From the NCBI GenBank assembly GCA_000002445.1, contig CM000208.1:2400001-2464000 (forward strand): a stretch of DNA of 64,000 nt. Direction: 5' to 3'. Both the position numbers and the translations under genes were made by a program. This DNA is from Trypanosoma brucei. Taxonomy: Eukaryota. Under the pieces are notes generated by a model that saw only the letters and a list, made by a program, of their open reading frames with translations, did no database searches and had not been told where the DNA came from. Positions 2,519-63,405 of this stretch are shown here, in pieces (position 1 is the first letter of the stretch; the number at the start of each line of letters is the position of its first letter).

Positions 2519-3755
2519 GTGGGGAAATGAAAGAGAGTTTGATTCATCTTTTGTGTTTATTTCCTTCTTTAGTAATTGGTTTTTGACCACGTTTACACCC
2601 CAAACATTCTCTTGTTTTGTTCTGTGATGGAGGAGAGGTTGCGCTGGAGCCCTCTCCCCAGATTTGATTCACGTGAATGTGGCGCTTCTTTGCTATACTG
2701 AAAAACAAAGGTTGTGCTTCCTTTTCTTTGATTCTTTCCGTGCAGCGTTAGTTATGCCAGTGTTATTGGCGCCTTCATGTTACGGTGCGTGTTAGGCCTA
2801 TCTCAACTTTCGGAACCAAACAAGGAAGTTATGGCACCTCCTAATATTTGGTGAATAAGCGTGAACGGTCGGAAGTAACAAAGGAACAGTCCACGTAGCA
2901 AGGGACAATTTCAAACGTCGGCAACACAAAAGGGGCTGGCGGGGGGCCGTGCGTGAGGGAAATCAGGGGTTAAGACAGCGGCCGCGTTGCTGTGCTCTTT
3001 CCTGCAAATTTAGGTCGTCTCGGCTTACTCGTTCGCGAGGTCCCACCTGGGCACCAACGGAGAATTTAGTTTTTTCTTATTCCTCCAGTTGTATCATTTG
3101 TATTCAATGATGATTGGAGAGCGAAACTAACGCCGGAGGTGATCCTATTGGGCGTGATTGCGAGCTACGTGATTCTATTCGCGCTTGCTTCTGTGCTTCA
3201 CGAAGTAGGTGTCCGGCACACCAGCATTGTTCAAATGACACTCATAACTCCACTTCATTGGGTGATCGTGTGAGTTTATTACCTCGGTATGCCACTGCTG
3301 CCTTCTGGCCCCTGAAAACCTCCATTTTTTTAGCTCTTTTTTTTCGCCCTCACTGCAACTATACATTTGGTAGTAACGTGAGACTTTGGGTGCATCCCGT
3401 GTGAGAGATGGTAGTCGTGCGATTGTAGTGCTGGAGTCATTTTCTCCAGGTACCTCCATAACTCAAGGAGCACGTCTCTACCCATGTATGTTTATTGTTG
3501 CGTTATTTCGAATACCTTCTTCCCATTTGTTGTCCATGATGATCCTTAAAAAACGCTCACGTTATTTCAGAAGCCATAATAAGAGCATAGCAGTGTCAAC
3601 AGGAAGTGAAGTTGGAAAACGGGAAAACGCAGGCAGCGTTAGTACGTAAGGAAAAAGAGGTGGCATATACGGAGGAAGAGAGTCAGGAAAGAAAGTGCAG
3701 GTGGGAAAGAAGTGGAGGTGAGCCAATATCCGGTTGCCTTCCGTTAAAGTCCAGT

Positions 3756-24400: not shown

Positions 24401-24499
24401 CCGGCGGGCGGCAACGAGGGTGACGAAACAATTTTGGTAAACTCGAACGATTTGGGGTCATCAGTGGTTGAGGCAGCCGATGGGGGAGCATCAGCGTGA
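21425..24499 (+). CDS. Large alpha-helical repeat protein (HPR/FASTK/OPR-like degenerate ~38-aa repeats) with mitochondrial-type presequence; putative organellar RNA-binding protein
   Basis: 1024 aa. The N-terminus is R/S-rich and amphipathic (MMANKRLGRHASSLL..). It has at least 7 repeats ending A[FY][AS]+xGxxxxxLFxxxxxR: AFSRSGVWDATLFADLGKRV, AFARVGLTQYNIFDELTLRA, AYATIGCKHEELFSIIADRF, AFAAIGIRNDRLFIEAIPRV, AYSQVGLWHYKLFVRLADRAV, AYARVDMRYEKLFVEFSPRV, AYAKVRVLDTAVFKACVDRA. Confidence 0.65.
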   Translation: MMANKRLGRHASSLLSPYTMVPTPIAATGSSCLSQRTSVPCSRAALLQAKCFSSERLARLFALELNRARAEYRRTPTKAQQEACLRTIASVPLQQVRGLDGKTVAQCLTTLVTLDAPADMPIIHDCAVWISVHPDALSPHSLAQSLYSLVCLEYSDSASVVCAVRQQLLSAMEDMAASSICMVLAAVLTSYATPARGQLAAGAGKGSEEGVSGTLQLPMDMSQLAERALPFMDESLGLTEKAMVAVALGKYLSQTATATWTEGLIADRIMAQLSAVVWGCIPGAELSVLSMADIVGIVSVLHVVPLPIRDSVATAALQELKTRVCNQSLESSRSVVQVARVLSCLCNVNRESVYYSASQDVLEKVVSALEAYVASDAITLDAAAKLLEEFSKITGSSIATPPALTRYLVRAINGSKEKWDAQSVRTVLSVFSKDSSLQADAQALATRRVELIKSKCTAGASVDASDVAALLVEGIVDPHAELLAETVTNNISRWSVSQVMTFLQAAARVNGKPTNAIMRDVASKLVPCMEKATAAQVAAVMSSYGRARVRNDAFCAAVTSRAALLGPELTLQQISTILGGLAAVEYRDTKLFLDVAPTVIAQSATADATQTANLLAAYAKMLVWNFKVIWSLAERASVIHEQFTLTQVFAVVTSLNRMDVQHDVLVQALLRKAIRCASDDPNLPLPDVVMILSAFSRSGVWDATLFADLGKRVVQQQQSLTPEELAETLMAFARVGLTQYNIFDELTLRALAVAPTCSLMALANVSVAYATIGCKHEELFSIIADRFVNQKLDVPAVTIASVLSAFAAIGIRNDRLFIEAIPRVRHVGQYGTPKDITNVVYAYSQVGLWHYKLFVRLADRAVQLRGEFRCDQLARLLEAYARVDMRYEKLFVEFSPRVQTVAHLLTAGEISTVVNAYAKVRVLDTAVFKACVDRAQEVLNSFEQSEAALLVGALRKAKFDHEGLAVSLGKMFPGMMASLQQVEDEEREVGTTPAGGNEGDETILVNSNDLGSSVVEAADGGASA

Positions 24500-25065: not shown

Positions 25066-26091
25066 ATGAGCTCAAGGAACTGCAGCCTTTCGCAAGGTAG
25101 GTTACTCTCCCGGCAGAAGCGCCCACTAGTTGTGGCACAGTTTCTCAACAAAGTTCCAATAGAAGACCGTCATGCGGCTACAAATGCGCTGCTTTGCCTG
25201 GGACTCCGCGCATACAAGATGGTCCACGCCACCACCCCTCCAGATATGCAAACACTACGGTCTGCGGTTTCTGCGGAGATCTCCGCGGTAGCCAGCGGAT
25301 CTGAGGGCTTAAATGACCAAAAGATAGATGAAGGTACAGCAAGCGGGCGCCAGCGGGGGGCTGTAGATGACGTTGATGCGTTTCTGTTTGCACGCCGCGA
25401 ACGCGGACAGGCGCCTTCATCCTCGCCCCCTGTGGATAGGCGTTTGGAGGGAAATACGGAAGAGGAGGAGTTTTACACGCGTATCGAGAGTGTAAGAAAT
25501 GTTGGCGAACCCTCATACCACGATAGAATGCCCCAGTTGATGGAGGATGTTGATGTATATTCTTCAAGTAAGAGCGGTGCGGACACCAGGGCGCTGAATC
25601 GATTGGCTGGCGACGGAGGTGAAAGCGACAGAGCTGCGGGCAAATCGGGGTGCTTCACTGATGTGCTTGATTTTGTTACGAACTGTGCCGTAGGAAGTTT
25701 GTCATTGTGCACTCCGACGCGCTGTCGAGAAGCAGCGAATGTCAGCTCCTCCCCACCCGCTAACTGTTACAACGCTCCAGGTTCCGAACAACCCAACATG
25801 GGACACGCTTCACCACTACGTGCGAGTGGAAGCCAAGACCTCCCTCTCGGTGGAATGAAAGAGTTTAACATGAACACAGTGGTGCCGTTGCTGGACGATA
25901 ATGGTGTTGTTTATCCTGTTGAATTCATTCACCATCTAATGGCCCGCATCAAAAGCACACGCGGCGTGCGGGAAAACCCCATTCTTGTTGCGGCCTACAT
26001 GCCACAGTCGTTGGCTGTCTACACATTGCAGGGAAGCTTTGGGGATCTTTACAGAAGCCTTTTGGTTTCCTACCATGTTTCCATGTGGTGA
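25066..26091 (+). CDS. Hypothetical protein (low complexity)
   Basis: The ORF 24799..26091 has a hydrophobic, pyrimidine-encoded 5' part that looks like UTR/polyY read-through, so I start at ATG 25066 (MSSRNCSL). About 341 aa, no domain recognised. Weak. Confidence 0.4.
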   Translation: MSSRNCSLSQGRLLSRQKRPLVVAQFLNKVPIEDRHAATNALLCLGLRAYKMVHATTPPDMQTLRSAVSAEISAVASGSEGLNDQKIDEGTASGRQRGAVDDVDAFLFARRERGQAPSSSPPVDRRLEGNTEEEEFYTRIESVRNVGEPSYHDRMPQLMEDVDVYSSSKSGADTRALNRLAGDGGESDRAAGKSGCFTDVLDFVTNCAVGSLSLCTPTRCREAANVSSSPPANCYNAPGSEQPNMGHASPLRASGSQDLPLGGMKEFNMNTVVPLLDDNGVVYPVEFIHHLMARIKSTRGVRENPILVAAYMPQSLAVYTLQGSFGDLYRSLLVSYHVSMW

Positions 26092-26356
26092 GAACGAGAT
26101 GTTCCTTAGTCTAGTCGGGGATGCGCTCCAATTTCCTCATGTATTGTTTCGGATGTTTTTTGCTCAAAGGATGCTGTTTCCACTTGCATGTCCCCCACCT
26201 AAGTCCGTTATAAAGTTTTGTGTTTTTCTCACAGTTCATCGTTTCTTTTCTACCCCTTCAACATTGATAACAAAAGTGTGCTCGGCTGTTCGCATTATCA
26301 GTGGCGGCGAGGGAGGTGCAGAGAACGGAGACTACTTCCGTAAGTCTTTGAATATA

Positions 26357-26962
26357 ATGACTGACGCCAGTAAAACAACCAAATCTGTTGAGAACGCTAA
26401 TATCCCCACGTTGACATTTGTCACGGGGAATGCCGGTAAGCTTCGCGAGGTGCAGGCCTGCCTTGGCGGCTACGTCACGACCGAATCGGTGAAATTGGAC
26501 CTTCCAGAAATACAGGCCTCATCGGTTTCACGAGTGAGTCGAGAGAAGGCTCTCCTTGCGTACGAACGGCTAAAGAAGCCGGTGCTCGTAGAGGACACTG
26601 GGCTGTCTTTTGAGGCTCTGGGAGGAATGCCCGGTCCATATGTCCGTTGGTTCCTCGACGCTGTTGGACCTATTGGACTCGCCAAAATGCTCAACGGCTT
26701 CGAGTCCCGCAGCGCTCAGGTGGACTGCGTCTTCACCTACTGCGCCTCACCGGGAGAAGTGCTTCAGTTCATCGGGAGCAGTCGCGGCAGTATTTCAATG
26801 GTACCACGTGGCGAAGGTGGTTTTGGGTTCGACACCATTTTTATGCCAGACGATGGCAATGGGCAAACATTTGCAGAGATGTCGGCAAGCACAAAAAACA
26901 CAATATCACATCGGGCCAGAGCACTGGTGGAAGTAAGGAAGCATTTTGAAAATAGCAAATAG
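26357..26962 (+). CDS. ITPA: Inosine triphosphate pyrophosphatase (HAM1/ITPase, non-canonical NTP pyrophosphatase)
   Basis: TLTFVTGNAGKLREV..LPEIQ..KALLAYERLKKPVLVEDTGLSFEALGGMPGPYVRWF.......GFGFDTIFMPDDGNGQTFAEMS...KNTISHRARAL are the Ham1 family signatures. The ORF frame opens at 25985, but the first sensible ATG is 26357 (MTDASKTT). Confidence 0.85.
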   Translation: MTDASKTTKSVENANIPTLTFVTGNAGKLREVQACLGGYVTTESVKLDLPEIQASSVSRVSREKALLAYERLKKPVLVEDTGLSFEALGGMPGPYVRWFLDAVGPIGLAKMLNGFESRSAQVDCVFTYCASPGEVLQFIGSSRGSISMVPRGEGGFGFDTIFMPDDGNGQTFAEMSASTKNTISHRARALVEVRKHFENSK

Positions 26963-50587: not shown

Positions 50588-53056
50588 ATGAATAGCAGTG
50601 GTCTTGTTTTGGAACTCCTCTGCAATCTACGATGGGTTTTGTCGTACATAGTACAACGCCTAGACCCAATAGTGGAGAAGCACTACGGGCGTACAATCGA
50701 ACAAGCGAAACGGATGGAATCTGCAGTGTCTCGATCATTTGCCAATGCACAATCCCTCTCCGATCTTCCACCGGAGGTTCTCACTCTGGCACAGGAGGGT
50801 GTGGTTTACCTTCTCGTTGCAGAAGGCGTGCTTGGCTACTGCCCACCCACAATGCATTCGTTTTTGCTTCGCGGAGCATCGTCCTGTGTTTCAGAAGCAT
50901 TTAGTGGCTGCTTTAGCGGCAACAGCAGCGCTAGTTCCGCTTGTTCAAAGATACACTCAACGGCGAGTAACTACCAGGCTCAGTTTTTAGTTGTACGGTG
51001 GCTGACGGAGGAAGGAATCCTGACAGATGAGGAGTTGCTCGATGCGATGGATGAGGGAGGCGAAGTCCCACTGAATAAGCAAGAAAGTCGCTTTGGTTTA
51101 CATATGGCAATGGCGGAACGCCTTTCAGTCGAATGTTCCTTTTCAGTTCAGGCACATGTCGTTCTCACTCGATCGCTTCTCCTGTACTACTGCTCAACAC
51201 TGATTACTGTGGAGGACGTTGAATTACATCTCAACTTCCTGGACCCAACGTGCGAAAAGGAATTAACCAACATGGAGAGTGCCCTTTTACTCTGGCTACT
51301 CTGCCTACTGAAGAACATGCAGCGGGGAGGGACGATAAATGATCAAGTGTTTCGGGAACTTAAAGGGTCCGCTGATTCCTTGTACAAGACCGTTCAGAGC
51401 GGCACAGTATTAGCTCTTGTGATGAGTTTCTACAAGCCACATTTGCTTCCACCGAGTAGTATTGACGCACGTGCAAGCAACCCATCGGAAATGCTGCGGC
51501 AGCAACAACATTTCGAGCACTGGGGAAAGACGCTTCGTGTAGCAGAGGAGCTGGGGCTTTCTCCATGTCTGTATGCAGATGAGGCTGGACAATATGGTTC
51601 AGTTGTCCTTCAGCTTCATGTTCTTAGATTTATAGGGGAGTTGTTCGCAATGCTGGCCACACAAGCGGAGGATGTAGAAGGTTTTTGTGCTTATGCTGTC
51701 CGGTCGCAGAAACTTCACGCCTCAGCTGACTGTCAGCGTTGGTGTAGTATGATGGGTAGCGATCGGAGTGGAGGTCATGCGGATGGGTCGATGAATGTGA
51801 ATGGCATGGAATCGTCGTGTGAAACCTTTCGAGACGCGGAGTTGTCACAACGCAAAGGTGATAATGAAGACAGTGCCGTTGACCACACGAGGTCTATTAA
51901 CAGCTCTGTCGTTTATAGTTGTTTCCCCTCCGCCCACAACCGCCGTCAATACGATGTGATGAAAGCGAGTCTTTTACGTAGTGGGGAGAACGACATGGCG
52001 GCGCCCAAATACTGTTCCAGTTCTGGGAAGCACTGTGAAGCGCGAAACGTAAGTAGCGTTGAAGGGCACGTGGATTTAGGGGTTGAAGAATCCTTTGCAT
52101 CGGAAGGTCTTGTTCCGTCGGCAAGTGGGGCCCACCGGTCACCCACTGCTGCTCCTTCGTATGCGGGACTAGTTGATTCTTGCCGCACAAGAACAAGGAC
52201 GTCTGTTGCTAAAGTATGGTGGAGCAGCGATGAGGGAGACGTGGAGGTGTTTTCGCACTCAACCTCAGGAACGGGGAACGATGTTTTTCTCAACTCCACA
52301 ATTGTACAAGCTCCCTCCCTACCGAGCAGTGGTTGCGCTAACTCAAGCGTCTGCATGCAGCAAAGAGGATGGAAGCCACGTGACAGCTCGCTCCACCCCC
52401 CAGCGCCGTTCAACATTGAAGAAAGTGACGGGAGTGGAGCATCCCCACGCTTTGGTCACTCAGACATGCTATCACCTCTAAGCAGTACCGCATGCGAGGC
52501 GGAAGTTGTCGTGGGAATCGATGGATCGCGTATCACATCAGAAAATAGTTTCCGCATCAACACTGTAGAAAGAGGGTACACCCCTCAGGCAAGTAGTTCT
52601 GGGCTTTCCCCCCTCACACCTGTTGAAACGACTGACCGTGGTACAATTCCAGTGGACATGGCAATTCAGAAAAATAATGACGCCAAAAATGGCACGTTCC
52701 CGCGCGCACCACATAGTGGGGCGCGGGAACAAATGCAAAACTGTCCGCCGAACGATGAATCGGATGATGATGCCTTGCTACGGGAAGTTTACTCACTGTA
52801 CCCTGCTCTGCCTACTATTGACAGCCGTCAGAAGCTTCTTGAAACATTGGAACACCAGCATGTTTTGATCAAACGCCTTACCCAAAAGCTGTTGGAAGCA
52901 AAGAAGGCAAGCCCTTCACCGGCCGGACTTGCTCCACCAGAAGTCGCCGATCCAAACCGGACGCTTCCATCTATCATGAACAAAGCAAAGGAACGGTTCC
53001 ACCACGAAAGCGCAGCTGGTCGAATGGGTAACGAGAAAATGAATTCCGAAAAATAG
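50588..53056 (+). CDS. Hypothetical protein (822 aa) with structured N-terminal ~400 aa and S/T-rich disordered remainder, C-terminal short coiled coil
   Basis: Protein-like N-terminal region. The C-terminal coiled coil is SRQKLLETLEHQHVLIKRLTQKLLEAKK. No family recognised by eye. Confidence 0.55.
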   Translation: MNSSGLVLELLCNLRWVLSYIVQRLDPIVEKHYGRTIEQAKRMESAVSRSFANAQSLSDLPPEVLTLAQEGVVYLLVAEGVLGYCPPTMHSFLLRGASSCVSEAFSGCFSGNSSASSACSKIHSTASNYQAQFLVVRWLTEEGILTDEELLDAMDEGGEVPLNKQESRFGLHMAMAERLSVECSFSVQAHVVLTRSLLLYYCSTLITVEDVELHLNFLDPTCEKELTNMESALLLWLLCLLKNMQRGGTINDQVFRELKGSADSLYKTVQSGTVLALVMSFYKPHLLPPSSIDARASNPSEMLRQQQHFEHWGKTLRVAEELGLSPCLYADEAGQYGSVVLQLHVLRFIGELFAMLATQAEDVEGFCAYAVRSQKLHASADCQRWCSMMGSDRSGGHADGSMNVNGMESSCETFRDAELSQRKGDNEDSAVDHTRSINSSVVYSCFPSAHNRRQYDVMKASLLRSGENDMAAPKYCSSSGKHCEARNVSSVEGHVDLGVEESFASEGLVPSASGAHRSPTAAPSYAGLVDSCRTRTRTSVAKVWWSSDEGDVEVFSHSTSGTGNDVFLNSTIVQAPSLPSSGCANSSVCMQQRGWKPRDSSLHPPAPFNIEESDGSGASPRFGHSDMLSPLSSTACEAEVVVGIDGSRITSENSFRINTVERGYTPQASSSGLSPLTPVETTDRGTIPVDMAIQKNNDAKNGTFPRAPHSGAREQMQNCPPNDESDDDALLREVYSLYPALPTIDSRQKLLETLEHQHVLIKRLTQKLLEAKKASPSPAGLAPPEVADPNRTLPSIMNKAKERFHHESAAGRMGNEKMNSEK

Positions 53057-53656
53057 CCCACAATATCAACACATTACATTTCCAACTTGGAAGGTGTTTT
53101 AACTTCACAGCGTCGTGACGCAGGGCACAAGGGCTGGCGAGATATCGAATGAACCTCCGCATTTATGAGGAGTGGCGAGGAACCGCTCACGTTGTTGTCC
53201 TCATCATCAACAATTTCAGAAACGGGAGGTCAGCGGGCGTTTCCTCATATCCGAGACAGGCACGTGGTTTGAAACGTGCATCTGGCTGACGTTGCATGTG
53301 TTAGCACCGAACTACCTTACGGCGGTACGTAGCCAGTCGATAGACCGTTTTTTTTTGTGTGTGTGTGAAGCTCACTCTCCATTGGAACCTTACAGATGGG
53401 CTTTATTCACTTAACACTTGCTTGTTTTCCAACCTAAGTTACTTGAGTACAAGTTTGTGGGTTTGCACGTGAGCGCGAGCCTCTGTTTTCCCCCACCAAG
53501 GGGAAAGTAGTCGAGTGGTTATTTTTGTGGGTTGATGTGCCCAGGCCGACATCTTCCGTGCTGCTGTGCGCCCTTCTTACCTTTCTCACTTACCTTTTTT
53601 ATTTGGATTATTGTCACGTAGTTGTCTGGTCTTAGGCCACGTCAACAGCGGATTCA

Positions 53657-54103
53657 ATGCCCCTAAGATGCACTAAACCACTGGGGGCGACACCCGCAAC
53701 GCCAACGGCCCCCCCAACAGGTCGCAAGGGACACCAAGTGGCTATTAACGGTTTCATCACCTGGATACTGGTAACAATGTCGTTGGTGGTGTATTTTCTC
53801 TGGGCGTTTATTCCCACATCATTCCTTGACATGGTCCTCGCGAGTTATTACCCTGACAAGTATTGGGCTGTTGCAATCCCCGCTATATTGGTTATGACTA
53901 TGGTGTACTACTTAACCGTGCATTTTCTGTTAATGTTATACAGGACGGACCCCCTCACCGACGGGTTTTGTGTGGCGCAGACAAACGGAGCGGTGAGGCA
54001 TGAAAGTATTGAGAACTTGGTCGATGTGGAGGACGGTGTTCCACCCATCACGGACATTCCAGTGAGTGTGGCAAGCAGGTTGTTGTTTCAACCGTGGAAT
54101 TGA
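53657..54103 (+). CDS. PIGP: Phosphatidylinositol N-acetylglucosaminyltransferase subunit P (PIG-P/GPI19), GPI-anchor biosynthesis step 1
   Basis: 148 aa with two TM helices. GFITWILVTMSLVVYFLWAFIPTSFLDMVLASYYPDKYWAVAIPAILVM matches the PIG-P core (YGFVLYI.S...F..YLLWAF.P...LHSLGITYYP.KYWA.A.PA.L). Confidence 0.8.
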   Translation: MPLRCTKPLGATPATPTAPPTGRKGHQVAINGFITWILVTMSLVVYFLWAFIPTSFLDMVLASYYPDKYWAVAIPAILVMTMVYYLTVHFLLMLYRTDPLTDGFCVAQTNGAVRHESIENLVDVEDGVPPITDIPVSVASRLLFQPWN

Positions 54104-54399
54104 TAAGGCAGGGGGTGGTCAGCGAGTATGCGTGAGCATGCACGACTGAAAGTTGGGGAATACGGCAGAAAAACTGTCTTTTCCATATACAAAAATTTGT
54201 GCAAACTCTCTTCTTTCGGATCGTGCGGTATGTCGCAACCAGTGGTGCATAGGACACACCAGTTAGAAAATATCTTCTGTTTGTTGTTGTTGTTTTTTTC
54301 CACCTGAGGGTTAGGTAGACAAGGGGTTGGCGGGTGAGATTTACGGTGTGAAGTAGTGGAGGTTTGCATTGTTCCCCACTAGTCCACTGAAGGGGTGGA

Positions 54400-56124
54400 A
54401 TGCGTCGTTGCAAACTGTGGCTACAAGGCAAGGGTCTAACAACGCTGATCTCTGCTGTCTCTTCATGTCGTGTTGCTCTGGCATCTGAGGACGTGTATAA
54501 AATCTGTGCGTTGCTGAAGGCCAAAGAAGATACGCTGCATTTGCAAACGAACCAGAGCTTTATCCATGGACTGCATGTTCAGTACAAAAAACTGGACCCA
54601 GAGGAGGTGACACCTTTTCAGAAGTCATTCATTGATGGTACCTTCGCCGCTTTCCCACTTAGCCCTGACTTGCTGGTTGCCTCCTCCCAGACCGGAAAGA
54701 ACGAGGGTAGTGATATAACCAACATTCAAGCAGGGGAGACAAGCATATCACCAGTTGTCGCCTCCGGAACCGTGGTGGAAAAATGTCCACACGCGGGTTT
54801 GGGGTCCGGTGGGGAGACAGAGGTGGAAGAGAGGTTAGCTGCCGTGTGGGATATTGTACAAGAGTGTCAAAAGTCTAACTTCGTTGGAACGGACGGAATA
54901 CAGAAGATACAAGTACACTGCAAAGCACTGGAGAGGCACTTACGACGAATGAGGCCCTTCGAAATAGTATCCCTCGTTAGGGCCCTCGCCACGATCAACT
55001 ACCAAGATTATGCGCTCACAAATCTGCTCGCTCGTCGGAGCTGTGAGGTCGCGTCAAAGCTGTCCTCTTCTGAAGTTTGCAGAACCTACTTCAACCTCAG
55101 CAAACTACAAAGCCACGACTCGATGGTGGCCTTCGTAAACCAGATTGAGATTCAGATGGACAATTTACATCGTGACCAGGTTCAGTTTGTTGCCATGGCG
55201 CTCGAACGCCAACCGCAGATCGCGTCAGCGCCAGCACGCATGGTGCCAAAGCTTTTGGCTAGAGCGGTTACGCTTCTCCACGAAGTAAATGATGCAGCGT
55301 ACCACAGGTCCCTGTTGGTTGTGGCAGCACGATACAACCTACGACGCCATCCTGCAGTTCCGAAAATAATTGCCAACGTGACTAAACATCTCGGCAGCGT
55401 CTCTGACCGCGATTTACTGACCATGCTGCAGTCCGCAGTGGATCTCGAAATTTCAGCGGGTACCACAGGGATGTCCGAGCTGCTAGAGAGAACAGAAACT
55501 GCGGTGGATACGGTGGAAGTGAGGTCTCTCGACACACTCGTGGACATACTCTCTGTCCTGCCCGTAGACACGGGAAAGATAATGGAAAGGTTGTTAAACC
55601 GTCTCACAGTAGACGCTGGTAAACTGTCCATACCTCAGTTAGCCCTGACGCTCGATCTCTTATCCGGCTATCCGGCTGCAAGGGGCCACCCGTGCATTGC
55701 AGCTTTAGCGTTTGCGGCCTCAATGAGGGCCGACTCCTTCGACGGCGAAGCGCTAGAACAATTGCTGCTGAATCTGGGCCAATTGGGTCAATTCTCCGAT
55801 GACTTTTATGCGTTGGTGCAAGTTTTGCAGAACGTCAAGGGTGGCTTCCGTAGCGCTGAGAAGTTATTCGAGTTGATGAGGTGCTGTACCCGGGACGTTG
55901 TATCAGATGTCCGGGGCCAAGACATGATCACGAGGGGGATTCTGGGATTGGCGCCGGGCATGAACGACGAAAATTTATCAGAGGCTCGCAAACTCCTTGT
56001 GCAGCTCGGTGTTGATGATAAAAACGTTCATCAGATTATTTTCCGTCGTGCGAAGCAGATCCAAAGAGAGTCAGGTAGTCGGTGGGGTCGCCGCGGTTAC
56101 GATGTCTCGGGCGACACCATGTAG
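54400..56124 (+). CDS. Alpha-helical repeat protein (HPR/FASTK-like), paralog A of tandem pair; putative mitochondrial RNA-binding
   Basis: 574 aa. Leucine-rich ~35-40-aa helical units (IVSLVRALATINYQDYALTNLLARRSCEV; LLTMLQSAVDLE..; LVDILSVLPVDTGKIMERLLNRL; LALTLDLLSGYPAA). The N-terminus is homologous to the downstream gene. Confidence 0.6.
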   Translation: MRRCKLWLQGKGLTTLISAVSSCRVALASEDVYKICALLKAKEDTLHLQTNQSFIHGLHVQYKKLDPEEVTPFQKSFIDGTFAAFPLSPDLLVASSQTGKNEGSDITNIQAGETSISPVVASGTVVEKCPHAGLGSGGETEVEERLAAVWDIVQECQKSNFVGTDGIQKIQVHCKALERHLRRMRPFEIVSLVRALATINYQDYALTNLLARRSCEVASKLSSSEVCRTYFNLSKLQSHDSMVAFVNQIEIQMDNLHRDQVQFVAMALERQPQIASAPARMVPKLLARAVTLLHEVNDAAYHRSLLVVAARYNLRRHPAVPKIIANVTKHLGSVSDRDLLTMLQSAVDLEISAGTTGMSELLERTETAVDTVEVRSLDTLVDILSVLPVDTGKIMERLLNRLTVDAGKLSIPQLALTLDLLSGYPAARGHPCIAALAFAASMRADSFDGEALEQLLLNLGQLGQFSDDFYALVQVLQNVKGGFRSAEKLFELMRCCTRDVVSDVRGQDMITRGILGLAPGMNDENLSEARKLLVQLGVDDKNVHQIIFRRAKQIQRESGSRWGRRGYDVSGDTM

Positions 56125-56427
56125 CGGCAACCACGGTGCTTTTACCCAGCTCTGTCGTTAGCGCCACCTACGGTTAGTATCTGTAGCTTTTTTCCCTGTG
56201 GGTTTCACACATTGTCAACCTATTACTGGGCAGCTGTGTCTGTCTCCTGTTTGTATTGGCTCCGCAGCGGTATTTTGATGCGCTGTGTGTGCAAAATTGT
56301 TTTTCCCCTCTTTCTTTCTTGACGGGCGTTGCGGTGGCAAATGTACTCGGTTGTTTATTGATTTATTACCACAGTTCCATAGGCTAAAGTCACGCTAGAG
56401 TGGAAACTTGTGTTCACTGTGGGCACA

Positions 56428-58065
56428 ATGCTCAACGTTCTCTCGAGCACAGCTTCGGCCGCGCTCGCGACAGTAGTAGTGGCACGCCCCTCCGCACTAC
56501 ACCTCATATTTGAGCGATGCAAGCTGAATCTTGTGGAATTCACGGCTCAGGACGTATATCAAATTTGCACCACCGCGTACAACATGGACACGCTGGGCAT
56601 GCTTCAGGATCCGGACTTCATGCGTGGGCTTCATGACGCCTTCCGACGCTCGGATCAGACGGTTATCTCCCCGTTTCAGGCGAACCTTATCGCTGATACC
56701 TTCCGCAAGGTGGGCATCAACAGCATGCCGAAGGAAGTGTCTGTGCCGGAGGAGGACGCCATTTCCCCCGAGTCACTTATACTAGTGCTTCGCAACATGA
56801 ACATCACGAAGCAGCGAGATGAGCGAAAGATTAACGAAGTTTTAAAATTGATGTTTCCTATATTAGACGAATTTAGTCCGACACAGCTGTCTCTCACGGT
56901 AACAGAGTTGGCGAGGCTAAAGTCTACAAATGCCGATTTCGTGGGTAAATTAGCCAAACGGATTATGGAATATAACGATGACTTAAGTGCACTTGACATA
57001 TCGTCAGCTGCTGTAAGCCTCGCCTACTGCCCGGGAATATCGCATAATATACTTTACCGCATGATGCAAATTGTAGAGGAGAGGATGGGGGAATTCCAGC
57101 CAGAGGATTACATTAACGTTTTACACGCTCTTAACACATTAGGGCCCAAGTTTGTGAATACCTTCCGAAAAATAGTGGAGTGTGGCCTGCAGCATGTGGA
57201 AAACATGGATGCCGTAACGTTGACAAATTATATGGTTTGTTTTTCAACAATGGACTACAAGCAGCGTGAACACATTGATATCTACGCAGATGCGCTGGTG
57301 GAAGTTGCGACAGACCTCTCTGAAAAGGATCTGGTGATGGCTTTTATCGCGCTCCAGCGACTTCGACTTCTCAGTGACACAATGTTTGGCACCATGGCGT
57401 CTTGTGTGATACGTTACGCAGCGAAAATGGACCCGCGTAACATCGCACCTATTATGGACATCTGCAGCACCGTCCCTCATGCATCCGATCACCTCATGAA
57501 GGTCCTCATGGATCGCGCTGTCGAGTGTACGCGCATTCTTACAGCGAATCAATTAGGAGACATTCTCGATATATTGGGCCTTTACCCACCAGCACGAGAG
57601 CATCCACTTGTACAGCTGTTCGGAAAGCAGGCTCGGCTCCGCCTGGATTTGATGGGCCCCGATGCGCTCGCTAATGCCACTCGGGGGCTGGCGAACCTTG
57701 GTTACGCGGACCCGGAGTATTACGCTCAAGCGGCGGAGACGGGCTTTCGCTATGGTTTCAAAGACTGGACTCTGCTGGAACCGATGCTCATGGGCCTCAG
57801 CATCACAGGTCAATGCCCACCTACCATGGTGCGAGTGCTCGGTTCACATATAGCGCCAATGGCCCGCTCAATGAGTTTAATGGAAATCGAGAGGGCTAAT
57901 CGTTATTTGAGGCGTCTCGGCTGCGAAGATGACTTTGTTTACAAGGCGATGGCGAGTCGTGTGTTGCAATTTGTGAAAGAGGTTACGCCTGAAATGCCGG
58001 AAGACCTGCAGGTCCTACTGCAGAGGGGGGCGGTTGAGCCTGGAGCTGCTCCCGGAGTTATGTGA
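56428..58065 (+). CDS. Alpha-helical repeat protein (HPR/FASTK-like), paralog B of tandem pair; putative mitochondrial RNA-binding
   Basis: Start at ATG 56428 (MLNVLSSTASAALATVVVARPSAL); the track start is GTG 56410. Aligns with gene A: QDVYQICTTAYNMDTLGMLQDPDFMRGLHDAFRRSDQTVISPFQANLIADTF vs EDVYKICALLKAKEDTLHLQTNQSFIHGLHVQYKKLDPEEVTPFQKSFIDGTF. Similar helical repeats occur throughout. Confidence 0.6.
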   Translation: MLNVLSSTASAALATVVVARPSALHLIFERCKLNLVEFTAQDVYQICTTAYNMDTLGMLQDPDFMRGLHDAFRRSDQTVISPFQANLIADTFRKVGINSMPKEVSVPEEDAISPESLILVLRNMNITKQRDERKINEVLKLMFPILDEFSPTQLSLTVTELARLKSTNADFVGKLAKRIMEYNDDLSALDISSAAVSLAYCPGISHNILYRMMQIVEERMGEFQPEDYINVLHALNTLGPKFVNTFRKIVECGLQHVENMDAVTLTNYMVCFSTMDYKQREHIDIYADALVEVATDLSEKDLVMAFIALQRLRLLSDTMFGTMASCVIRYAAKMDPRNIAPIMDICSTVPHASDHLMKVLMDRAVECTRILTANQLGDILDILGLYPPAREHPLVQLFGKQARLRLDLMGPDALANATRGLANLGYADPEYYAQAAETGFRYGFKDWTLLEPMLMGLSITGQCPPTMVRVLGSHIAPMARSMSLMEIERANRYLRRLGCEDDFVYKAMASRVLQFVKEVTPEMPEDLQVLLQRGAVEPGAAPGVM

Positions 58066-58459: not shown

Positions 58460-59455
58460 ATGTACCGGTCCCGGCCCGAGCCCGTTCAGGGCCACTTGTT
58501 TACCTACTACAAAGATCCCTACTGTAAGATACCCGTTTTCATGATGAATATGGACGCCCGTCGGTGCGTTTTGTGGGTAGGAGGACAGACTGAGTCCTTA
58601 TTAAGCTTTGACTACTTCACCAACCTTGCTGAGGAACTCCAGGGGGATTGGGCCTTCGTTCAAGTTGAGGTGCCAAGCGGGAAGATCGGCTCCGGTCCAC
58701 AGGACCACGCACATGATGCCGAAGATGTGGATGACCTCATTGGTATTTTGTTGAGGGACCACTGTATGAATGAAGTGGCACTATTCGCAACAAGCACAGG
58801 AACTCAGTTGGTGTTTGAGCTGCTCGAAAATAGTGCCCACAAGAGTTCTATCACACGCGTCATACTTCATGGTGTCGTCTGCGACCCTGAGAACCCATTG
58901 TTCACTCCTGAGGGGTGCGCAGCGCGAAAAGAGCATGTCGAAAAGCTAATGGCAGAGGGCCGCGGTGAAGATTCTCTTGCGATGCTCAAGCACTACGACA
59001 TCCCTATTACCCCTGCACGCCTTGCAGGCGGAGGCTTCCCCACCCTCCAGGAAGCCGTTTGGAACCCTTGCATTCGCAAGGAATTTGACGTGCTGCGGAG
59101 GTCCGTCGGTGTGATTAAGGTTCCATTGCTTCTCATGCTTGCCCACAACGTGCAATACAAGCCGTCCGACGAGGAAGTAGGAACTGTCCTAGAGGGCGTG
59201 AGGGATCACACAGGATGCAATCGTGTCACCGTGTCGTATTTCAACGACACGTGTGATGAACTTCGTCGCGTGTTGAAAGCAGCAGAAAGCGAGCATGTGG
59301 CCGCCATTCTTCAGTTTCTTGCTGATGAAGACGAATTCCGCACCGAGACTGAGAAGAACAACCGAATTAAAGCAGCTGAGGATGAAAAGAAGAGAAAATC
59401 GGTCCTACAGGTATCATCTTTTGCTCAAGCCGCTTCCTCAGTGAAAGCTTCGTAA
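58460..59455 (+). CDS. DUF1749/UPF0613-family alpha/beta-hydrolase-fold protein
   Basis: GHLFTY......VLWVGGQTESLLSFDYFTNLAEELQGDWAFVQVEVPSGKIGSGPQDHAHDAEDVDDLIGILL.....EVALFATSTGTQ matches the UPF0613 pattern (V.FIGGL.DGL....Y...LA..L...W...Q...SSSY.G.G..SL..D..E........L.......I.LMGHSTGCQ). Confidence 0.6.
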   Translation: MYRSRPEPVQGHLFTYYKDPYCKIPVFMMNMDARRCVLWVGGQTESLLSFDYFTNLAEELQGDWAFVQVEVPSGKIGSGPQDHAHDAEDVDDLIGILLRDHCMNEVALFATSTGTQLVFELLENSAHKSSITRVILHGVVCDPENPLFTPEGCAARKEHVEKLMAEGRGEDSLAMLKHYDIPITPARLAGGGFPTLQEAVWNPCIRKEFDVLRRSVGVIKVPLLLMLAHNVQYKPSDEEVGTVLEGVRDHTGCNRVTVSYFNDTCDELRRVLKAAESEHVAAILQFLADEDEFRTETEKNNRIKAAEDEKKRKSVLQVSSFAQAASSVKAS

Positions 59456-61837: not shown

Positions 61838-62194
61838 CGATATTTTTAAATTCAATGAGAGTGCAGCAGGTGATACTGCTGATGACACGCTGGTACGTGC
61901 CCAGGGACCGACAAGTCAAAAACGGTGTCCCAGCAAGACGCTGCTGATCCCTGTGCTGTATGATGCCGTAGCCGGAGCAAAGAAATGTTCCAAAGGAGAG
62001 GAAGGCTGCTGGCTCTTGGCTTCCCCCGATGAAACGGGGTAATGGACCCTGGCACCACGTTGAGGTGGCCGGCATCGCCATGGGAAACCGCAGGTCCCAC
62101 GCCACATCAATGAGGGCAGAGAACAGCCACGATAATCGTGAGTTCAGTCTGTGTTGCTGTGCCCCCACAAACCGTCCAAAATCTGTTTTTCTTT

Positions 62195-62217
62195 TGTGTG
62201 TGTGTGTGTGTGTGTGT
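62195..62217. repeat. (TG)n microsatellite
   Basis: tgtgtgtgtgtgtgtgtgtgtgt is directly visible in the 5' region of the PPR gene. Confidence 0.9.
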
Positions 62218-62538
62218 TTTAATTATTGTTCTTGTGTGATGCTATTCATCGGTCTCACTTACTTCACAACCAACTGTTCCTCCTCTTTCTCACTTTCTGG
62301 TTACTTTTGCTCATCCTGTTTGCTGTCGTCGTCTACCACCGAAACTGAACGGCTGCCAATTTTATACCTTTCATTGAGCCCGGCGGAGTCCTGTATCACC
62401 ACAGCCCGAACTGACCCAACGGTACTGGAAAAAGTGCGGGTATCACTAATTTCTGTTGTGTACAGCAAAGCCGCGCGTAGGTGCTTTCTTTGTTTTCGGT
62501 TGCCATCGCAGACATTTTGTTCACCCCAGCGCCGTGTC

Positions 62539-63405
62539 ATGGCAATGCTTTCACAGGCTCGCGTAGCAGGTTGGGCGTCGCGCTGGCTTACTGATGAATT
62601 AGTGGCACTCTCTAAGGCGGGGAATTGGGAAGCAGCGATTAGCACCTTTTTACAATTGCAGCAGGCCAACATCGTGCAGAGCAATGTCTTTCATTATACA
62701 ACTGTAATTAGTGCTTGCGGTCGTGCTGGGAAATGGGAAGCAGCCATGTCCATTTTTGACCAGATGACGAAGAACGAAGTGAAACCCAACGTCTACACGT
62801 ACACGGCTGTGATTAATGCCTGCGCCAGCGCCGAGAAAGCAGACGTTGCGCTCCGCATGTTCGCCCATATGAGGTTGGCAGATGTACCACCCAACGTGCA
62901 AACCATGACAGCTCTTGTTAACGCGTGTGCTCGTTCCGGCGAATGGGAACGAGCGATAAAAATACTTCGCGATTGCGAGGAACTTTTTGTAGCGCCAAAT
63001 GTCTTCACATACACCGCTGCAATGGACGGGTGCAGGCGGGGGGGTGTTTGGAAACCTGCGGTGGATTTGCTCAACGAGATGCGCGACCCGACCCGCGTTC
63101 GCCCCAACGAGGTCACGTACAACACTGTGATTAATGCATGTGCGGTGGCGTCCGAGTTGAATGCCGCGCTCCAAGTTTATGCGACTATGGTAAGCGATGG
63201 ATACACTCCTGTCAACTTCACCAAAACACTGCTGATGCAGTTGTTTAGAAACACAGCACTCAGTGGCCTAGCTGATGAACTGAAGGTGCGTAAAACCACC
63301 TGGCGAGAGATAAATGTCCCCGACACTGACCCTGCCACAGCACTTGAAGCTGTCCGCGAGGATTCCCCGGCAGTGGAGGAGGAGGAGGAGGAAGGGAAAG
63401 GGTAA
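62539..63405 (+). CDS. Pentatricopeptide repeat (PPR) protein, predicted mitochondrial
   Basis: Start at ATG 62539 (MAMLSQARVAGWASRWL). About 7 canonical 35-aa PPR units: VFHYTTVISACGRAGKWEAAMSIFDQMTKNEVKPN, VYTYTAVINACASAEKADVALRMFAHMRLADVPPN, VQTMTALVNACARSGEWERAIKILRDCEELFVAPN, VFTYTAAMDGCRRGGVWKPAVDLLNEM, EVTYNTVINACAVASELNAALQVYATMVSDGYTP. The tail is acidic. Confidence 0.8.
   Translation: MAMLSQARVAGWASRWLTDELVALSKAGNWEAAISTFLQLQQANIVQSNVFHYTTVISACGRAGKWEAAMSIFDQMTKNEVKPNVYTYTAVINACASAEKADVALRMFAHMRLADVPPNVQTMTALVNACARSGEWERAIKILRDCEELFVAPNVFTYTAAMDGCRRGGVWKPAVDLLNEMRDPTRVRPNEVTYNTVINACAVASELNAALQVYATMVSDGYTPVNFTKTLLMQLFRNTALSGLADELKVRKTTWREINVPDTDPATALEAVREDSPAVEEEEEEGKG

What the first reader, a model, noticed from the sequence alone, without database searches (positions are those of the whole stretch)
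54400..58065. Tandem pair of diverged paralogous helical-repeat genes, next to a third family member and a PPR gene: a local enrichment of putative organellar RNA-binding repeat proteins
Genes 54400..56124 and 56428..58065 are adjacent and co-directional. Their N-terminal regions align clearly (about 30% identity by eye over ~55 aa, including DVY.IC, F..GLH and ISPFQ/VTPFQ). Both are built from degenerate 35-40-aa leucine-rich helical units, which points to an old tandem duplication. A 1024-aa protein with the same kind of repeat (21425..24499) and a canonical PPR protein (62539..63405) lie in the same transcription unit. All four have basic, hydroxylated N-termini compatible with mitochondrial import. 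In kinetoplastids such helical-repeat proteins are the main specificity factors for mitochondrial mRNA processing, editing and translation, and uncharacterised members are plausible new factors.
Basis: partly seen in the sequence, partly recalled or inferred. Interest (0 to 1): 0.5.

Follow-up and report, generated by a model that had tools for sequence, protein, structure and literature searches.

The report
RESC8 and its uncharacterised tandem paralogue
The two adjacent genes are true ancient duplicates: one is RESC8, a well-studied scaffold of the trypanosome mitochondrial RNA-editing machinery, and the other (Tb927.10.10120) is a mitochondrial sister protein that nobody has studied.

Summary
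The window is Trypanosoma brucei TREU927 chromosome 10.

- **Gene B (56428..58065)** is 100% identical to RESC8/MRB10130 (Tb927.10.10130, PDB 8FNC chain 8). [quoted passage not shown]
- **Gene A (54400..56124)** is Tb927.10.10120, annotated "hypothetical protein, conserved". It is a full-length paralogue of RESC8: BLASTP E=6e-13 and 2e-8, family profile comparison E=3.4e-50 over 496 columns. Its AlphaFold model matches RESC8 best (Foldseek E=1.8e-12).
- **Age of the pair.** The order PIG-P, A, RESC8, DUF1749 is kept in Leishmania and in some environmental kinetoplastid contigs. A directly precedes RESC8 in four of the five distinct environmental contigs (one gene intervenes in the fifth), some of them Bodo-like. 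The duplication therefore predates the trypanosomatids.
- **Divergence.** A evolves about twice as fast as RESC8. It retains only 36 of RESC8's 129 highly conserved positions and has a disordered insert.
- **Known biology of A.** It is absent from all solved RESC structures. It is a detected mitochondrial protein and is weakly biotinylated by TurboID-RESC6 and TurboID-RESC8.
- **The other two genes.** The "third member" is Tb927.10.9970, which is RESC6-like. The PPR gene is KPAF4, which is already characterised.

The "local enrichment" is a tandem duplicate inside a conserved gene order, with no demonstrated functional clustering. Overall this is mostly known biology plus one uncharacterised paralogue.

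The parts
54400..56124 (+). Gene A = Tb927.10.10120 (Q389W5 / XP_823233.1). It encodes a 574-aa, 63.2-kDa protein annotated 'hypothetical protein, conserved'. It is an uncharacterised mitochondrial RESC8 paralogue with an alpha-solenoid fold.
   Evidence: The exact sequence is found in T. brucei TREU927. The ID, length of 574 aa and gene length of 1725 nt match, and the molecular weight matches. The family profile comparison with RESC8 gives E=3.4e-50. The best structural match is RESC8. It lies in the mitochondrial reference set and falls on ATOM40 RNAi.
54472..54645 (+). N-terminal module shared with RESC8 (A residues 25-82), containing the DVYxIC, F..GLH and PFQ motifs.
   Evidence: BLASTP gives 34% identity and E=2e-8. 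The PFQ motif has the same consensus in both families, in at least 70% of sequences of each.
54664..54819 (+). Variable, predicted-disordered insert (A residues 89-140) that has no counterpart in RESC8.
   Evidence: pLDDT is below 50 for residues 89-140. The segment varies in length and sequence among orthologues and is a gap in RESC8 in the profile alignment.
55513..56070 (+). C-terminal region of A most similar to RESC8 (A residues 372-557). It includes the YPPA(K/R)GH motif and conserved Arg401 and Arg443.
   Evidence: BLASTP E=6e-13. Shared consensus columns are listed.
56125..56427 (+). 303-nt intergenic spacer between A and RESC8. A polypyrimidine tract at about 56298-56320 is followed by AG dinucleotides. 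I infer these are the polyadenylation and trans-splicing signals of a trypanosome polycistron.
   Evidence: Sequence read directly. The function is inferred from established knowledge of trypanosomatid mRNA processing and was not tested.
56428..58065 (+). Gene B = RESC8 / MRB10130 / REMC1 (Tb927.10.10130). [quoted passage not shown]
   Evidence: It is 100% identical over 545 aa to PDB 8fnc_8. The ID is given in the review table and the molecular weight.
21425..24499 (+). Tb927.10.9970 (Q389X9), a 1024-aa, 110.0-kDa uncharacterised mitochondrial protein with a RESC6-like helical domain in its C-terminal half. It is a distant relative only and is not part of the tandem duplication.
   Evidence: The exact sequence is in TREU927. 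phmmer against RESC6 gives E=3.6e-31 over residues 688-934. It was recovered in KPAF4 and GRBC2 pull-downs.
62539..63405 (+). KPAF4 (Tb927.10.10160), a 288-aa, 31.8-kDa PPR protein. It is the characterised mitochondrial poly(A)-binding factor that stabilises mRNA.
   Evidence: Pfam PPR_2 E=2.6e-49. The computed mass of 31.8 kDa equals the published 31.8 kDa for Tb927.10.10160. The identification rests on gene numbering plus mass, because the exact 288-aa sequence is not in the protein collection.
53657..54103 (+). PIG-P orthologue (148 aa), the upstream synteny anchor of the pair.
   Evidence: The ORF is listed. By eye its sequence resembles the PIG-P gene (PF08510) that sits upstream of the A-like gene in L001, L003 and L006. 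I did not align them formally.
58460..59455 (+). DUF1749-family gene (331 aa), the downstream synteny anchor of the pair.
   Evidence: Pfam DUF1749 E=7.9e-12. The same family lies directly downstream of RESC8 in L001, L002, L005, L006, L007, L009 and the JGI contig.

Best explanation
The finding is an ancient tandem gene duplication inside a T. brucei chromosome 10 polycistron.

The downstream copy is RESC8 (MRB10130). [quoted passage not shown] It contacts RNA and stabilises the association of the two modules.

The upstream copy, Tb927.10.10120, keeps the same overall fold and a small set of signature motifs. These are PFQ, YPPA(K/R)GH and four arginines conserved in both families. Beyond that it has diverged about twice as fast as RESC8, lost most RESC8-specific conserved positions and gained a disordered insert. 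It is not a stoichiometric subunit of any solved RESC particle.

**Shown:** identity of the genes, homology, fold, age and synteny of the pair, expression and mitochondrial location of A.

**Inferred:** A works as a helical scaffold for a mitochondrial RNA-protein assembly. It acts either at the periphery of RESC or transiently with it, or in a neighbouring RNA-processing step. It is not a redundant second RESC8.
For: **Identity**
- Gene B is 100% identical to PDB RESC8.
- Gene A is XP_823233 / Q389W5 of TREU927, which is Tb927.10.10120.

**Homology**
- BLASTP E=6e-13 and 2e-8.
- phmmer of A against the PDB finds only RESC8 below E=0.1, at E=8e-16.
- Family profile comparison: probability 100%, E=3.4e-50, 496 columns.

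**Fold**
- AlphaFold2 mean pLDDT 78.9, all helical hairpins.
- Foldseek top hits are RESC8 chains (E=1.8e-12, TM 0.53-0.59), then RESC6 and helical-repeat proteins of mitoribosomes.

**Distinct orthologous lineages**
- Every A-type sequence scores far higher with the A HMM than with the RESC8 HMM, and the reverse holds for RESC8-type sequences.

**Age and synteny**
- An A-like gene lies upstream of RESC8 in L. mexicana and in five distinct environmental contigs, directly in all but L007, where one gene intervenes.
- Three of these contigs carry a RESC8 that is closer to Bodo saltans than to any trypanosomatid reference tested.
- Adjacent locus tags in T. vivax, T. grayi, T. conorhini and T. 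congolense show the same pairing.

**Rate asymmetry**
- Mean pairwise identity is 0.32 in the A family and 0.55 in the RESC8 family. Only 36 of 129 RESC8 columns conserved at 90% or more are kept in A. There are 33 shared consensus columns.

**Expression and location**
- 11 peptides were detected. A is in the mitochondrial reference set. The ATOM40 knock-down ratio is 0.76, p=0.005.

**Proximity to RESC**
- TurboID-RESC6 and TurboID-RESC8 give 2-5 spectral counts against 0 in the parental control.

**RESC8 function**
- From PMC6800514, PMC11381364 and PMC12936278.
Against: - There is no functional experiment on Tb927.10.10120. Its ID appears in the main text of no paper in the library.
- It is absent from all solved RESC and mitoribosome structures. 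It was not found in the KPAF4, KPAP1, MERS1 or GRBC2 pull-down tables that are held, although those files are truncated.
- The TurboID counts are low. Bystander matrix proteins such as citrate synthase and DnaJ are also labelled, and the authors do not single out this protein.
- RNA binding by A is untested. Its predicted pI of 6.7 is not strongly basic.
- Foldseek TM-scores to RESC8 are moderate (0.53-0.59) with a large rmsd. That is expected for a flexible solenoid, but it does not prove the same curvature or the same interfaces.
Confidence: 0.6

Rival explanations
1. Tb927.10.10120 is an alternative RESC organiser. It would replace or partner RESC8 in a variant RESC particle that is specific to a transcript, a life-cycle stage or an assembly step. 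This would resemble the paralogue pairs RESC11A/11B and RESC12/12A.
For: - A is a full-length RESC8 paralogue with a RESC8-like fold.
- Motifs are conserved across both families.
- A is biotinylated by TurboID-RESC6 and TurboID-RESC8 but not in the control. The RESC8-TurboID signal is lost after RESC14 RNAi: counts of 2, 4, 2 fall to none.
- RESC already contains paralogue pairs (table).
Against: - A is not present in the RESC-A, RESC-B or RESC-C structures.
- It is not named among RESC components in the reviews read here.
- Only 28% of strongly conserved RESC8 positions are retained, so the RESC8 partner interfaces are probably not conserved.
- The spectral counts are too low to be statistically meaningful, and the authors did not flag the protein.
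Confidence: 0.2
2. Tb927.10.10120 is a scaffold in a different mitochondrial RNA process, with no direct role in editing. Candidates are mitoribosome assembly, mRNA stabilisation or tailing, and translation activation.
For: - After RESC8 and RESC6, the nearest structural neighbours are helical-repeat proteins of Toxoplasma, Polytomella and Chlamydomonas mitoribosomes.
- A has diverged strongly from RESC8.
- TurboID labelling is weak and comparable to KPAF2, a polyadenylation factor.
Against: - A is not a chain in any solved T. brucei mitoribosome or assembly intermediate.
- No direct association data exist for any such complex.
Confidence: 0.15
3. The upstream copy is a decaying or functionless duplicate. 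Alternatively, the similarity is only compositional resemblance between unrelated leucine-rich helical repeats.
For: A evolves about twice as fast as RESC8. The held Pfam copy returns no significant family for it.
Against: - Intact ORFs of similar length occur in every lineage examined. This covers Trypanosoma species, Leishmania, Leptomonas, Phytomonas and the environmental kinetoplastids; the Angomonas and Strigomonas entries are shorter or partial.
- 156 positions are invariant among eight Trypanosoma species.
- The protein has been detected with 11 peptides.
- The alignment with RESC8 is collinear over the full length, at E=3.4e-50 with compositional correction.
Confidence: 0.02

Closest known systems
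RESC8 (MRB10130 / REMC1, Tb927.10.10130; PDB 8FNC, 8FNF, 8FNI, 8FNK chain 8)
   Same: Gene B is this protein. Gene A shares its full-length architecture, its alpha-solenoid fold, the PFQ and YPPA(K/R)GH motifs, mitochondrial location and chromosomal position.
   Different: Gene A forms a separate orthologous lineage. It retains 28% of RESC8's strongly conserved positions, has a disordered insert of about 50 aa after the N-terminal module, evolves about twice as fast and is absent from solved RESC particles.
RESC6 (MRB3010, Tb927.5.3010; PDB 8FN4 chain 6) and the Pfam families named RESC6 (PF26188) and RESC8 (PF26172)
   Same: RESC6 has the same HEAT-like helical-hairpin solenoid. It is the second-best structural match of A (E about 1e-6 to 1e-5) and a sequence match of RESC8 (E=1.8e-6). 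The 1024-aa protein Tb927.10.9970 matches RESC6 at E=3.6e-31.
   Different: RESC6 is encoded on another chromosome and is much more distant from A than RESC8 is. In the precomputed annotations, A orthologues carry PF26172 but PF26188 is absent or only faint.
FASTK-family N-terminal helical domain (Pfam FAST_1) and RAP-domain proteins of organellar ribosomes
   Same: These are also mitochondrial helical-repeat scaffolds of RNA-protein complexes. A published review notes that FASTK N-terminal domains resemble RESC6 and RESC8 (PMC12687428). RESC8 gives a weak FAST_1 match and weak matches to Toxoplasma RAP-domain proteins.
   Different: The FAST_1 match is below Pfam's threshold in RESC8 (20.6 bits against 27.4) and absent in A. 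No RAP or PD-(D/E)XK nuclease-like C-terminal domain is detected in either protein.
RESC paralogue pairs RESC11A/11B (MRB8180/4150) and RESC12/12A (MRB4160/8170)
   Same: They are a precedent for duplicated genes that encode related components of the RNA-editing accessory machinery.
   Different: As I recall from the literature, those pairs are recent, closely similar duplicates specific to T. brucei with overlapping function; I did not test this here. The A/RESC8 pair is ancient, shared by kinetoplastids and deeply diverged (about 20% identity at profile level).
KPAF4 (Tb927.10.10160), the PPR poly(A)-binding protein
   Same: It lies in the same polycistron, three genes downstream of RESC8. 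It is mitochondrial and takes part in mRNA processing that is coupled to RESC.
   Different: It has a canonical PPR fold that reads bases. It is not homologous to the A/RESC8 solenoid and is already characterised.

Membership tests
RESC8 family (Pfam PF26172 'RESC8' HEAT-repeat domain) | Significant sequence or profile similarity to RESC8 over the helical-repeat domain. | tested here: met
   A against B gives BLASTP E=6e-13 and 2e-8. The family profiles give E=3.4e-50 over 496 columns. PF26172 is precomputed for A and all its orthologues. That model is not in the local Pfam copy, which returned no hit.
RESC8 family (Pfam PF26172 'RESC8' HEAT-repeat domain) | An alpha-solenoid fold superposable on the solved RESC8 structure. 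| tested here: met
   The AlphaFold2 model has pLDDT 78.9. The Foldseek top hits are 8fni_8 and 8fnc_8, with E=1.8e-12 and TM 0.53-0.59. The TM-score is moderate, as expected for a flexible solenoid.
RESC8 orthologue (the protein RESC8 itself) | Orthology to Tb927.10.10130. | tested here: not met
   This row concerns gene A. Its HMM scores are 1075 bits (A model) against 127 bits (RESC8 model), and all A-type proteins behave the same way. Both types coexist side by side in every genome or contig examined except the gapped Bodo saltans contig. Gene B does meet this feature, with 100% identity to 8fnc_8.
RESC complex subunit | Stable, stoichiometric presence in purified or solved RESC particles. 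| tested here: not met
   No PDB chain is identical to A; the only match below E=0.1 is RESC8 as a paralogue. A is not listed among RESC1-18 in the review table. Only low-count TurboID proximity is recorded. Native association cannot be tested with these tools.
RNA-binding protein | Direct RNA binding. | not testable with these tools
   RESC8 binds RNA according to PMC6800514 and PMC12687428. For A there are only four arginines conserved in both families: R213, R401, R443 and R550. These are candidates, not evidence.
FASTK / RAP family | FAST_1 and FAST_2 helical subdomains plus a C-terminal RAP (PD-(D/E)XK-like) domain above Pfam thresholds. | tested here: not met
   A has no hit. B matches FAST_1 at E=4.3e-4 and 20.6 bits, below the cut-off of 27.4. 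Neither has a RAP hit at E up to 1.
PPR / TPR-like sequence-specific repeat proteins | Pfam PPR or TPR repeat matches. | tested here: not met
   A, B and the 1024-aa protein give no PPR or TPR hit at E up to 1. The ORF 62539..63405 meets this feature, with PPR_2 at E=2.6e-49.
Mitochondrial (imported) protein | Experimental evidence of mitochondrial location or import. | tested here: met
   Tested from the literature, not by computation. Tb927.10.10120.10130.9970 and .10160 are all in the mitochondrial reference set. A, RESC8 and Tb927.10.9970 fall significantly in whole-cell extracts on ATOM40 RNAi (A: ratio 0.76, p=0.005, 11 peptides); KPAF4 is borderline there (p=0.012) but falls clearly in purified mitochondria (p=0.002) (PMC5436138 supplements). 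The N-terminus of A has 7 R/K and 2 D/E in its first 40 residues. No targeting predictor was available.

The most novel reading that the evidence does not exclude
Tb927.10.10120 is an unrecognised, substoichiometric RESC8-like organiser. It would define an alternative or transitional RESC state, for example a step in guide-RNA exchange or a transcript-specific step. That would explain why it is conserved next to RESC8 throughout kinetoplastids, yet is missing from the solved particles.
Probability: 0.2. Interest if true: 0.55.

Novelty: new member of a known kind. Interest (0 to 1): 0.3.

Why it matters
RESC remodelling during U-insertion/deletion editing is an open problem. It covers how the guide-RNA module joins and leaves the mRNA-bound module. 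RESC8 is one of the organiser proteins named in that problem, together with RESC10 and RESC14.

A sister protein of RESC8 that is conserved across kinetoplastids, expressed and mitochondrial is a cheap and specific candidate to test for a role in these transitions, or in a neighbouring RNA-processing step. No paper in the library used here mentions it in its main text.

Beyond that, the finding adds nothing new. RESC8 and KPAF4 are well characterised. Protein-family databases already label Tb927.10.10120 and Tb927.10.9970 as containing RESC8-like and RESC6-like domains. Gene order in trypanosomatid polycistrons is not known to reflect function.

Tried and rejected
1. **Local Pfam scan of A, B and the 1024-aa protein.** There were no significant hits, because the RESC6 and RESC8 models are newer than the local copy. 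I therefore relied on PDB sequence search, profile comparison and fold search.

2. **Third word-indexed homologue search, using an alignment that included the Leishmania orthologue.** It returned only the same nine Trypanosoma proteins, so the search was wasted. The exhaustive HMMER search was needed to see the wider family.

3. **Literature searches.** I searched for Tb927.10.10120, the old IDs Tb10.6k15.0160 and Tb10.406.00x0, and the accessions Q389W5 and XP_823233. No main text mentions the gene.

4. **A possible match to the TurboID 'hypothetical proteins'.** I suspected A was one of the three hypothetical proteins highlighted in the RESC14/RESC8 TurboID paper. It is not. Those are Tb927.3.4210, Tb927.10.9280 and Tb927.4.3070.

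5. **Sources that were unavailable or uninformative.**
   - The Science 2023 RESC structure paper is not held.
   - The Mol Cell 2026 complexome paper has no supplements held.
   - The genome-wide RNAi screen paper is not in the library.
   - The bloodstream/procyclic SILAC table lists A only as a reverse-decoy entry, so it gives no stage data.

6. **Bodo saltans.** No A-like ORF lies within 5.4 kb upstream of RESC8. The contig has a run of N there and RESC8 itself is split, so absence cannot be concluded.

7. **The 'enrichment' claim.** I could not test it statistically without genome-wide counts of such genes. I rejected it as evidence of functional clustering, because the same gene order (RESC8 ... 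PPR gene) recurs in distant kinetoplastid contigs as ordinary synteny.

Full report
**1. What is in the sequence**

The window carries 23 ORFs of at least 200 aa, all on the + strand. This is the layout of a trypanosomatid polycistronic unit.

The two ORFs of the finding are present as described: 54400..56124 (574 aa, "A") and 56428..58065 (545 aa from the ATG, "B"). The ORF of B opens at a GTG at 56410.

Exact-sequence look-up places A and the 1024-aa ORF (21425..24499) in Trypanosoma brucei brucei TREU927, on a 4.05-Mb record. They are XP_823233.1 / Q389W5 and XP_823219.1 / Q389X9. Both are annotated "hypothetical protein, conserved".

**2. Identity of the four genes**

[quoted passage not shown] A 2026 review table gives RESC8 = REMC1 = MRB10130 = Tb927.10.10130.
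- **A is Tb927.10.10120.** A proteomics database header reads [quoted passage not shown]. That is the same protein length and the same 1725-nt gene length. Two supplements link this ID to Q389W5 and to 63 kDa, and the computed mass is 63.2 kDa.
- **The 1024-aa ORF is Tb927.10.9970.** It is Q389X9, 1024 aa and 109,999 Da. The numbering is anchored by the Ham1/ITPase ORF at 25985..26962, which is Tb927.10.9990.
- **The PPR ORF 62539..63405 is KPAF4.** It has 288 aa and 31.8 kDa, with PPR_2 at E=2.6e-49. This matches KPAF4 (Tb927.10.10160), published as a 31.8-kDa protein made almost entirely of PPR repeats. KPAF4 binds mitochondrial poly(A) tails and stabilises mRNAs.

**3. Are A and B homologous?**

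Yes, on four lines of evidence.

- BLASTP with compositional adjustment gives two collinear segments. The first is A 372-557 against B 334-518, 26% identity, E=6e-13. The second is A 25-82 against B 36-92, 34% identity, E=2e-8.
- phmmer of A against all PDB sequences finds RESC8 at E=8e-16 and nothing else below E=0.1.
- I built a 25-sequence alignment of A orthologues and a 24-sequence alignment of RESC8 orthologues. Their profile-profile comparison gives probability 100% and E=3.4e-50 over 496 aligned columns, A 12-541 against RESC8 20-519. The homology is therefore full-length and not limited to one module.
- The AlphaFold2 model of A (mean pLDDT 78.9) is entirely helical. It has about 11 hairpins between residues 143 and 558, or about 38 aa per unit. 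Residues 89-140 are predicted disordered. Foldseek against the PDB ranks RESC8 chains first (E=1.8e-12 and 9.5e-12, TM 0.53-0.59). RESC6 follows, then helical-repeat proteins of Toxoplasma, Polytomella and Chlamydomonas mitoribosomes, and then RESC4, RESC9 and RESC3.

**4. Age and fate of the duplication**

*Within Trypanosoma.* A orthologues are 60-65% identical and RESC8 orthologues 81-85%. Adjacent locus tags show the pair is tandem in four species:
- T. vivax: ERJ75_000036100 and 036200
- T. grayi: DQ04_01401040 and 01401050
- T. conorhini: Tco025E_03079 and 03078
- T. congolense: TCIL3000_10_8290 and 8280

*Beyond Trypanosoma.* In L. mexicana the order is PIG-P, a 612-aa (645 aa as called) A-like gene, RESC8, DUF1749. 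T. brucei has the same anchors: a PIG-P-like ORF at 53657..54103 and DUF1749 at 58460..59455.

An A-like gene also lies upstream of RESC8 in environmental or read-archive contigs L003 (and its near-duplicate L004), L005, L006, L007 (and L008) and L009. It is the immediately adjacent gene in all of them except L007/L008, where a 225-aa gene intervenes.

HMMs built from each family separate the two gene types cleanly in every locus. For example, L006 A-like scores 379 bits (A model) against 68 bits (RESC8 model), and its neighbour scores 112 against 891.

The RESC8 copies in L006, L007 and L009 are closer to Bodo saltans RESC8 (71%, 59% and 60%) than to any trypanosomatid reference tested. The duplication therefore very probably predates the trypanosomatids. 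This is an inference, because the taxonomy of those contigs is judged only from similarity.

In the Bodo saltans contig itself, no A-like ORF lies in the 5.4 kb upstream of RESC8. That stretch contains a run of N, and RESC8 is split there, so absence cannot be concluded.

*Breadth of the family.* An exhaustive HMMER search of 1.84 billion representative proteins with the A profile finds only 37 proteins at E up to 0.001. They are A-type or RESC8-type, apart from one ambiguous case and a few fragments too short to classify. The named ones are Leptomonas, Phytomonas, Angomonas and Strigomonas. As far as this shows, the family is restricted to kinetoplastids.

*Unequal rates.* T. brucei against L. 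mexicana is 33% identical for A and 57% for RESC8. Mean pairwise identity is 0.32 within the A family and 0.55 within the RESC8 family.

In a merged alignment, 33 columns have the same consensus in both families. They include PFQ (A 72-74 / RESC8 82-84), YPPA (424-427 / 386-389) and four arginines (213/178, 401/363, 443/405, 550/511). Only 36 of the 129 columns that are at least 90% conserved in RESC8 are kept in A.

Relative to RESC8, A also has a variable and disordered insert at residues 89-140. This pattern fits a copy that kept the fold and a few core contacts but changed most surfaces.

**5. What is known about A experimentally**

Its ID appears in the main text of no paper in the library. 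The RESC8 papers do not mention a paralogue or a neighbouring gene. A does appear in supplements:

- **Importome study.** A is in the mitochondrial reference set. It was quantified with 11 peptides in whole-cell extracts and falls on ATOM40 knock-down (ratio 0.76, p=0.005). In organelle-enriched fractions the ratio is 0.75, p=0.07.
- **RESC14/RESC8 TurboID study.** Spectral counts for A are 0, 0, 0 in the parental line. They are 5, 4, 3 for TurboID-RESC6 without RESC14 RNAi and 2, 4, 2 with it. They are 2, 4, 2 for TurboID-RESC8 without RESC14 RNAi and none with it.

The TurboID counts are low, and abundant matrix bystanders are also labelled. The authors highlight three other hypothetical proteins, not this one.

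A is not a chain of any solved RESC, RECC or mitoribosome structure. It was not found in the truncated KPAF4, KPAP1, MERS1 or GRBC2 pull-down tables. Tb927.10.9970 was found there.

**6. What RESC8 does (from the literature)**

RESC8 is composed almost entirely of ARM/HEAT-like helical repeats. It binds RNA and is essential in procyclic forms. It is needed both for initiation of editing and for its 3'-to-5' progression (PMC6800514).

In the cryo-EM structures it sits with RESC10 and RESC14 between the guide-RNA-binding module and the mRNA-bound module. It is proposed to stabilise their association (PMC11381364 and PMC12936278). [quoted passage not shown]

**7. Most likely mechanism for A**

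*Shown:* A is an expressed, imported alpha-solenoid and the ancient sister of RESC8.

*Inferred:* it acts as a helical scaffold in a mitochondrial RNA-protein assembly. My estimate of about 0.6 covers the whole statement, including the scaffold role. I give about 0.2 that A works specifically as a RESC-associated alternative or transitional organiser. I give about 0.15 that it serves a different RNA process.

A functionless duplicate is excluded on two grounds. Intact ORFs are conserved across all the lineages examined, and the protein is detected by mass spectrometry.

**8. The wider claims**

- **The "third family member".** Tb927.10.9970 is related, but as a RESC6-like protein. Its match to RESC6 is E=3.6e-31. 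Its match to the RESC8 family is probability 94%, E=1e-7, and to the A family only probability 73%. It belongs to the same broad solenoid superfamily but not to the tandem duplication.
- **Other repeat families.** No PPR, TPR, RAP or above-threshold FAST domains occur in A, B or Tb927.10.9970.
- **The rest of the window.** It encodes unrelated functions: CFAP298, an ABC1 kinase, PSP1, WD40 proteins, a PHD finger protein, an ITPase, a hydrolase, an L10-like protein and VPS9.
- **Linkage of RESC8 and the KPAF4-like PPR gene.** It recurs in distant contigs. This is what the generally conserved gene order of kinetoplastids would produce. From established knowledge, trypanosomatid polycistrons are not functional operons. 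I therefore treat the "local enrichment" as unproven.

**9. Gene boundaries**

The 303-nt spacer between A and RESC8 contains a polypyrimidine tract at about 56298-56320, followed by AG dinucleotides. A similar tract lies upstream of A, at about 54275-54300. This is consistent with separate trans-splicing and polyadenylation of each mRNA. That is an inference and was not tested.

**10. Verdict**

However, two of the four genes are already well characterised, the repeat class is HEAT-like RESC6/RESC8 and not PPR-like, and the clustering has no demonstrated meaning.

The only new lead is that RESC8 has an unstudied sister gene, conserved across kinetoplastids, directly upstream of it. Family databases already flag the domain.

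Novelty: new member of a known kind. Interest: 0.3.

Noticed in passing
window 53657..54103 (+): A 148-aa ORF resembles the PIG-P gene (GPI-anchor biosynthesis) that lies upstream of the A-like gene in Leishmania and in two environmental contigs. The block PIG-P, A, RESC8, DUF1749 therefore appears to be an old syntenic unit. The similarity was judged by eye from the translations and by the Pfam labels of the other loci.
   Followed up: partly
window 62029..63405 (+): The KPAF4 ORF stays open 510 nt upstream of the ATG at 62539, giving 458 aa. This extension includes a Cys/Val-rich low-complexity stretch. An older annotation (Q389W1) lists 42.9 kDa, whereas the published protein is 31.8 kDa, which matches the ATG at 62539. 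The upstream part is probably 5' UTR.
   Followed up: partly
L002 (Bodo saltans CYKH01001011.1) 2700..5400: No A-like gene lies upstream of RESC8 in this contig. The region holds a run of N and two near-duplicate short ORFs (3277..4122 and 4345..4689), and RESC8 itself is split into 413-aa and 90-aa gene calls. It may be an assembly problem or a real loss or relocation of the paralogue in B. saltans.
   Followed up: partly
proteins P0099 / P0105 (ENA metagenome, 603 and 685 aa): P0099 scores about equally with the A HMM (47 bits) and the RESC8 HMM (60 bits); P0105 is a member of its cluster. These may represent a third lineage or a form that predates the duplication, from an unidentified organism.
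   Followed up: no
window 54400..56124; PMC11381364 Table S7: TurboID-RESC8 labelling of Tb927.10.10120 (2, 4, 2 spectral counts) disappears after RESC14 RNAi, while TurboID-RESC6 labelling persists. The authors emphasise the same pattern for three other hypothetical proteins. The counts for this protein are too low to be conclusive.
   Followed up: partly
window 21425..24499 (+): Tb927.10.9970 is a 110-kDa mitochondrial protein with a RESC6-like C-terminal half. It appears in KPAF4 and GRBC2 (RESC2) pull-down tables and at very low counts in the RESC TurboID data. It has no dedicated study in the library, so it is a second uncharacterised candidate for a role in mitochondrial RNA processing.
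   Followed up: partly
window about 50588..54103: Tb927.10.10110, the gene numbered just before A, is also listed in the mitochondrial reference set of the importome study. I did not determine whether that ID is the 822-aa ORF (50588..53056) or the PIG-P-like ORF.
   Followed up: no
JGI metagenome 3300059473 contig (no DNA held); L003 14881..15620: A 286-aa or 279-aa PPR gene, KPAF4-like by size and domains, lies three genes downstream of RESC8 in distant kinetoplastid contigs, as it does in T. brucei. The linkage of RESC8 and KPAF4 is therefore old synteny.
   Followed up: partly
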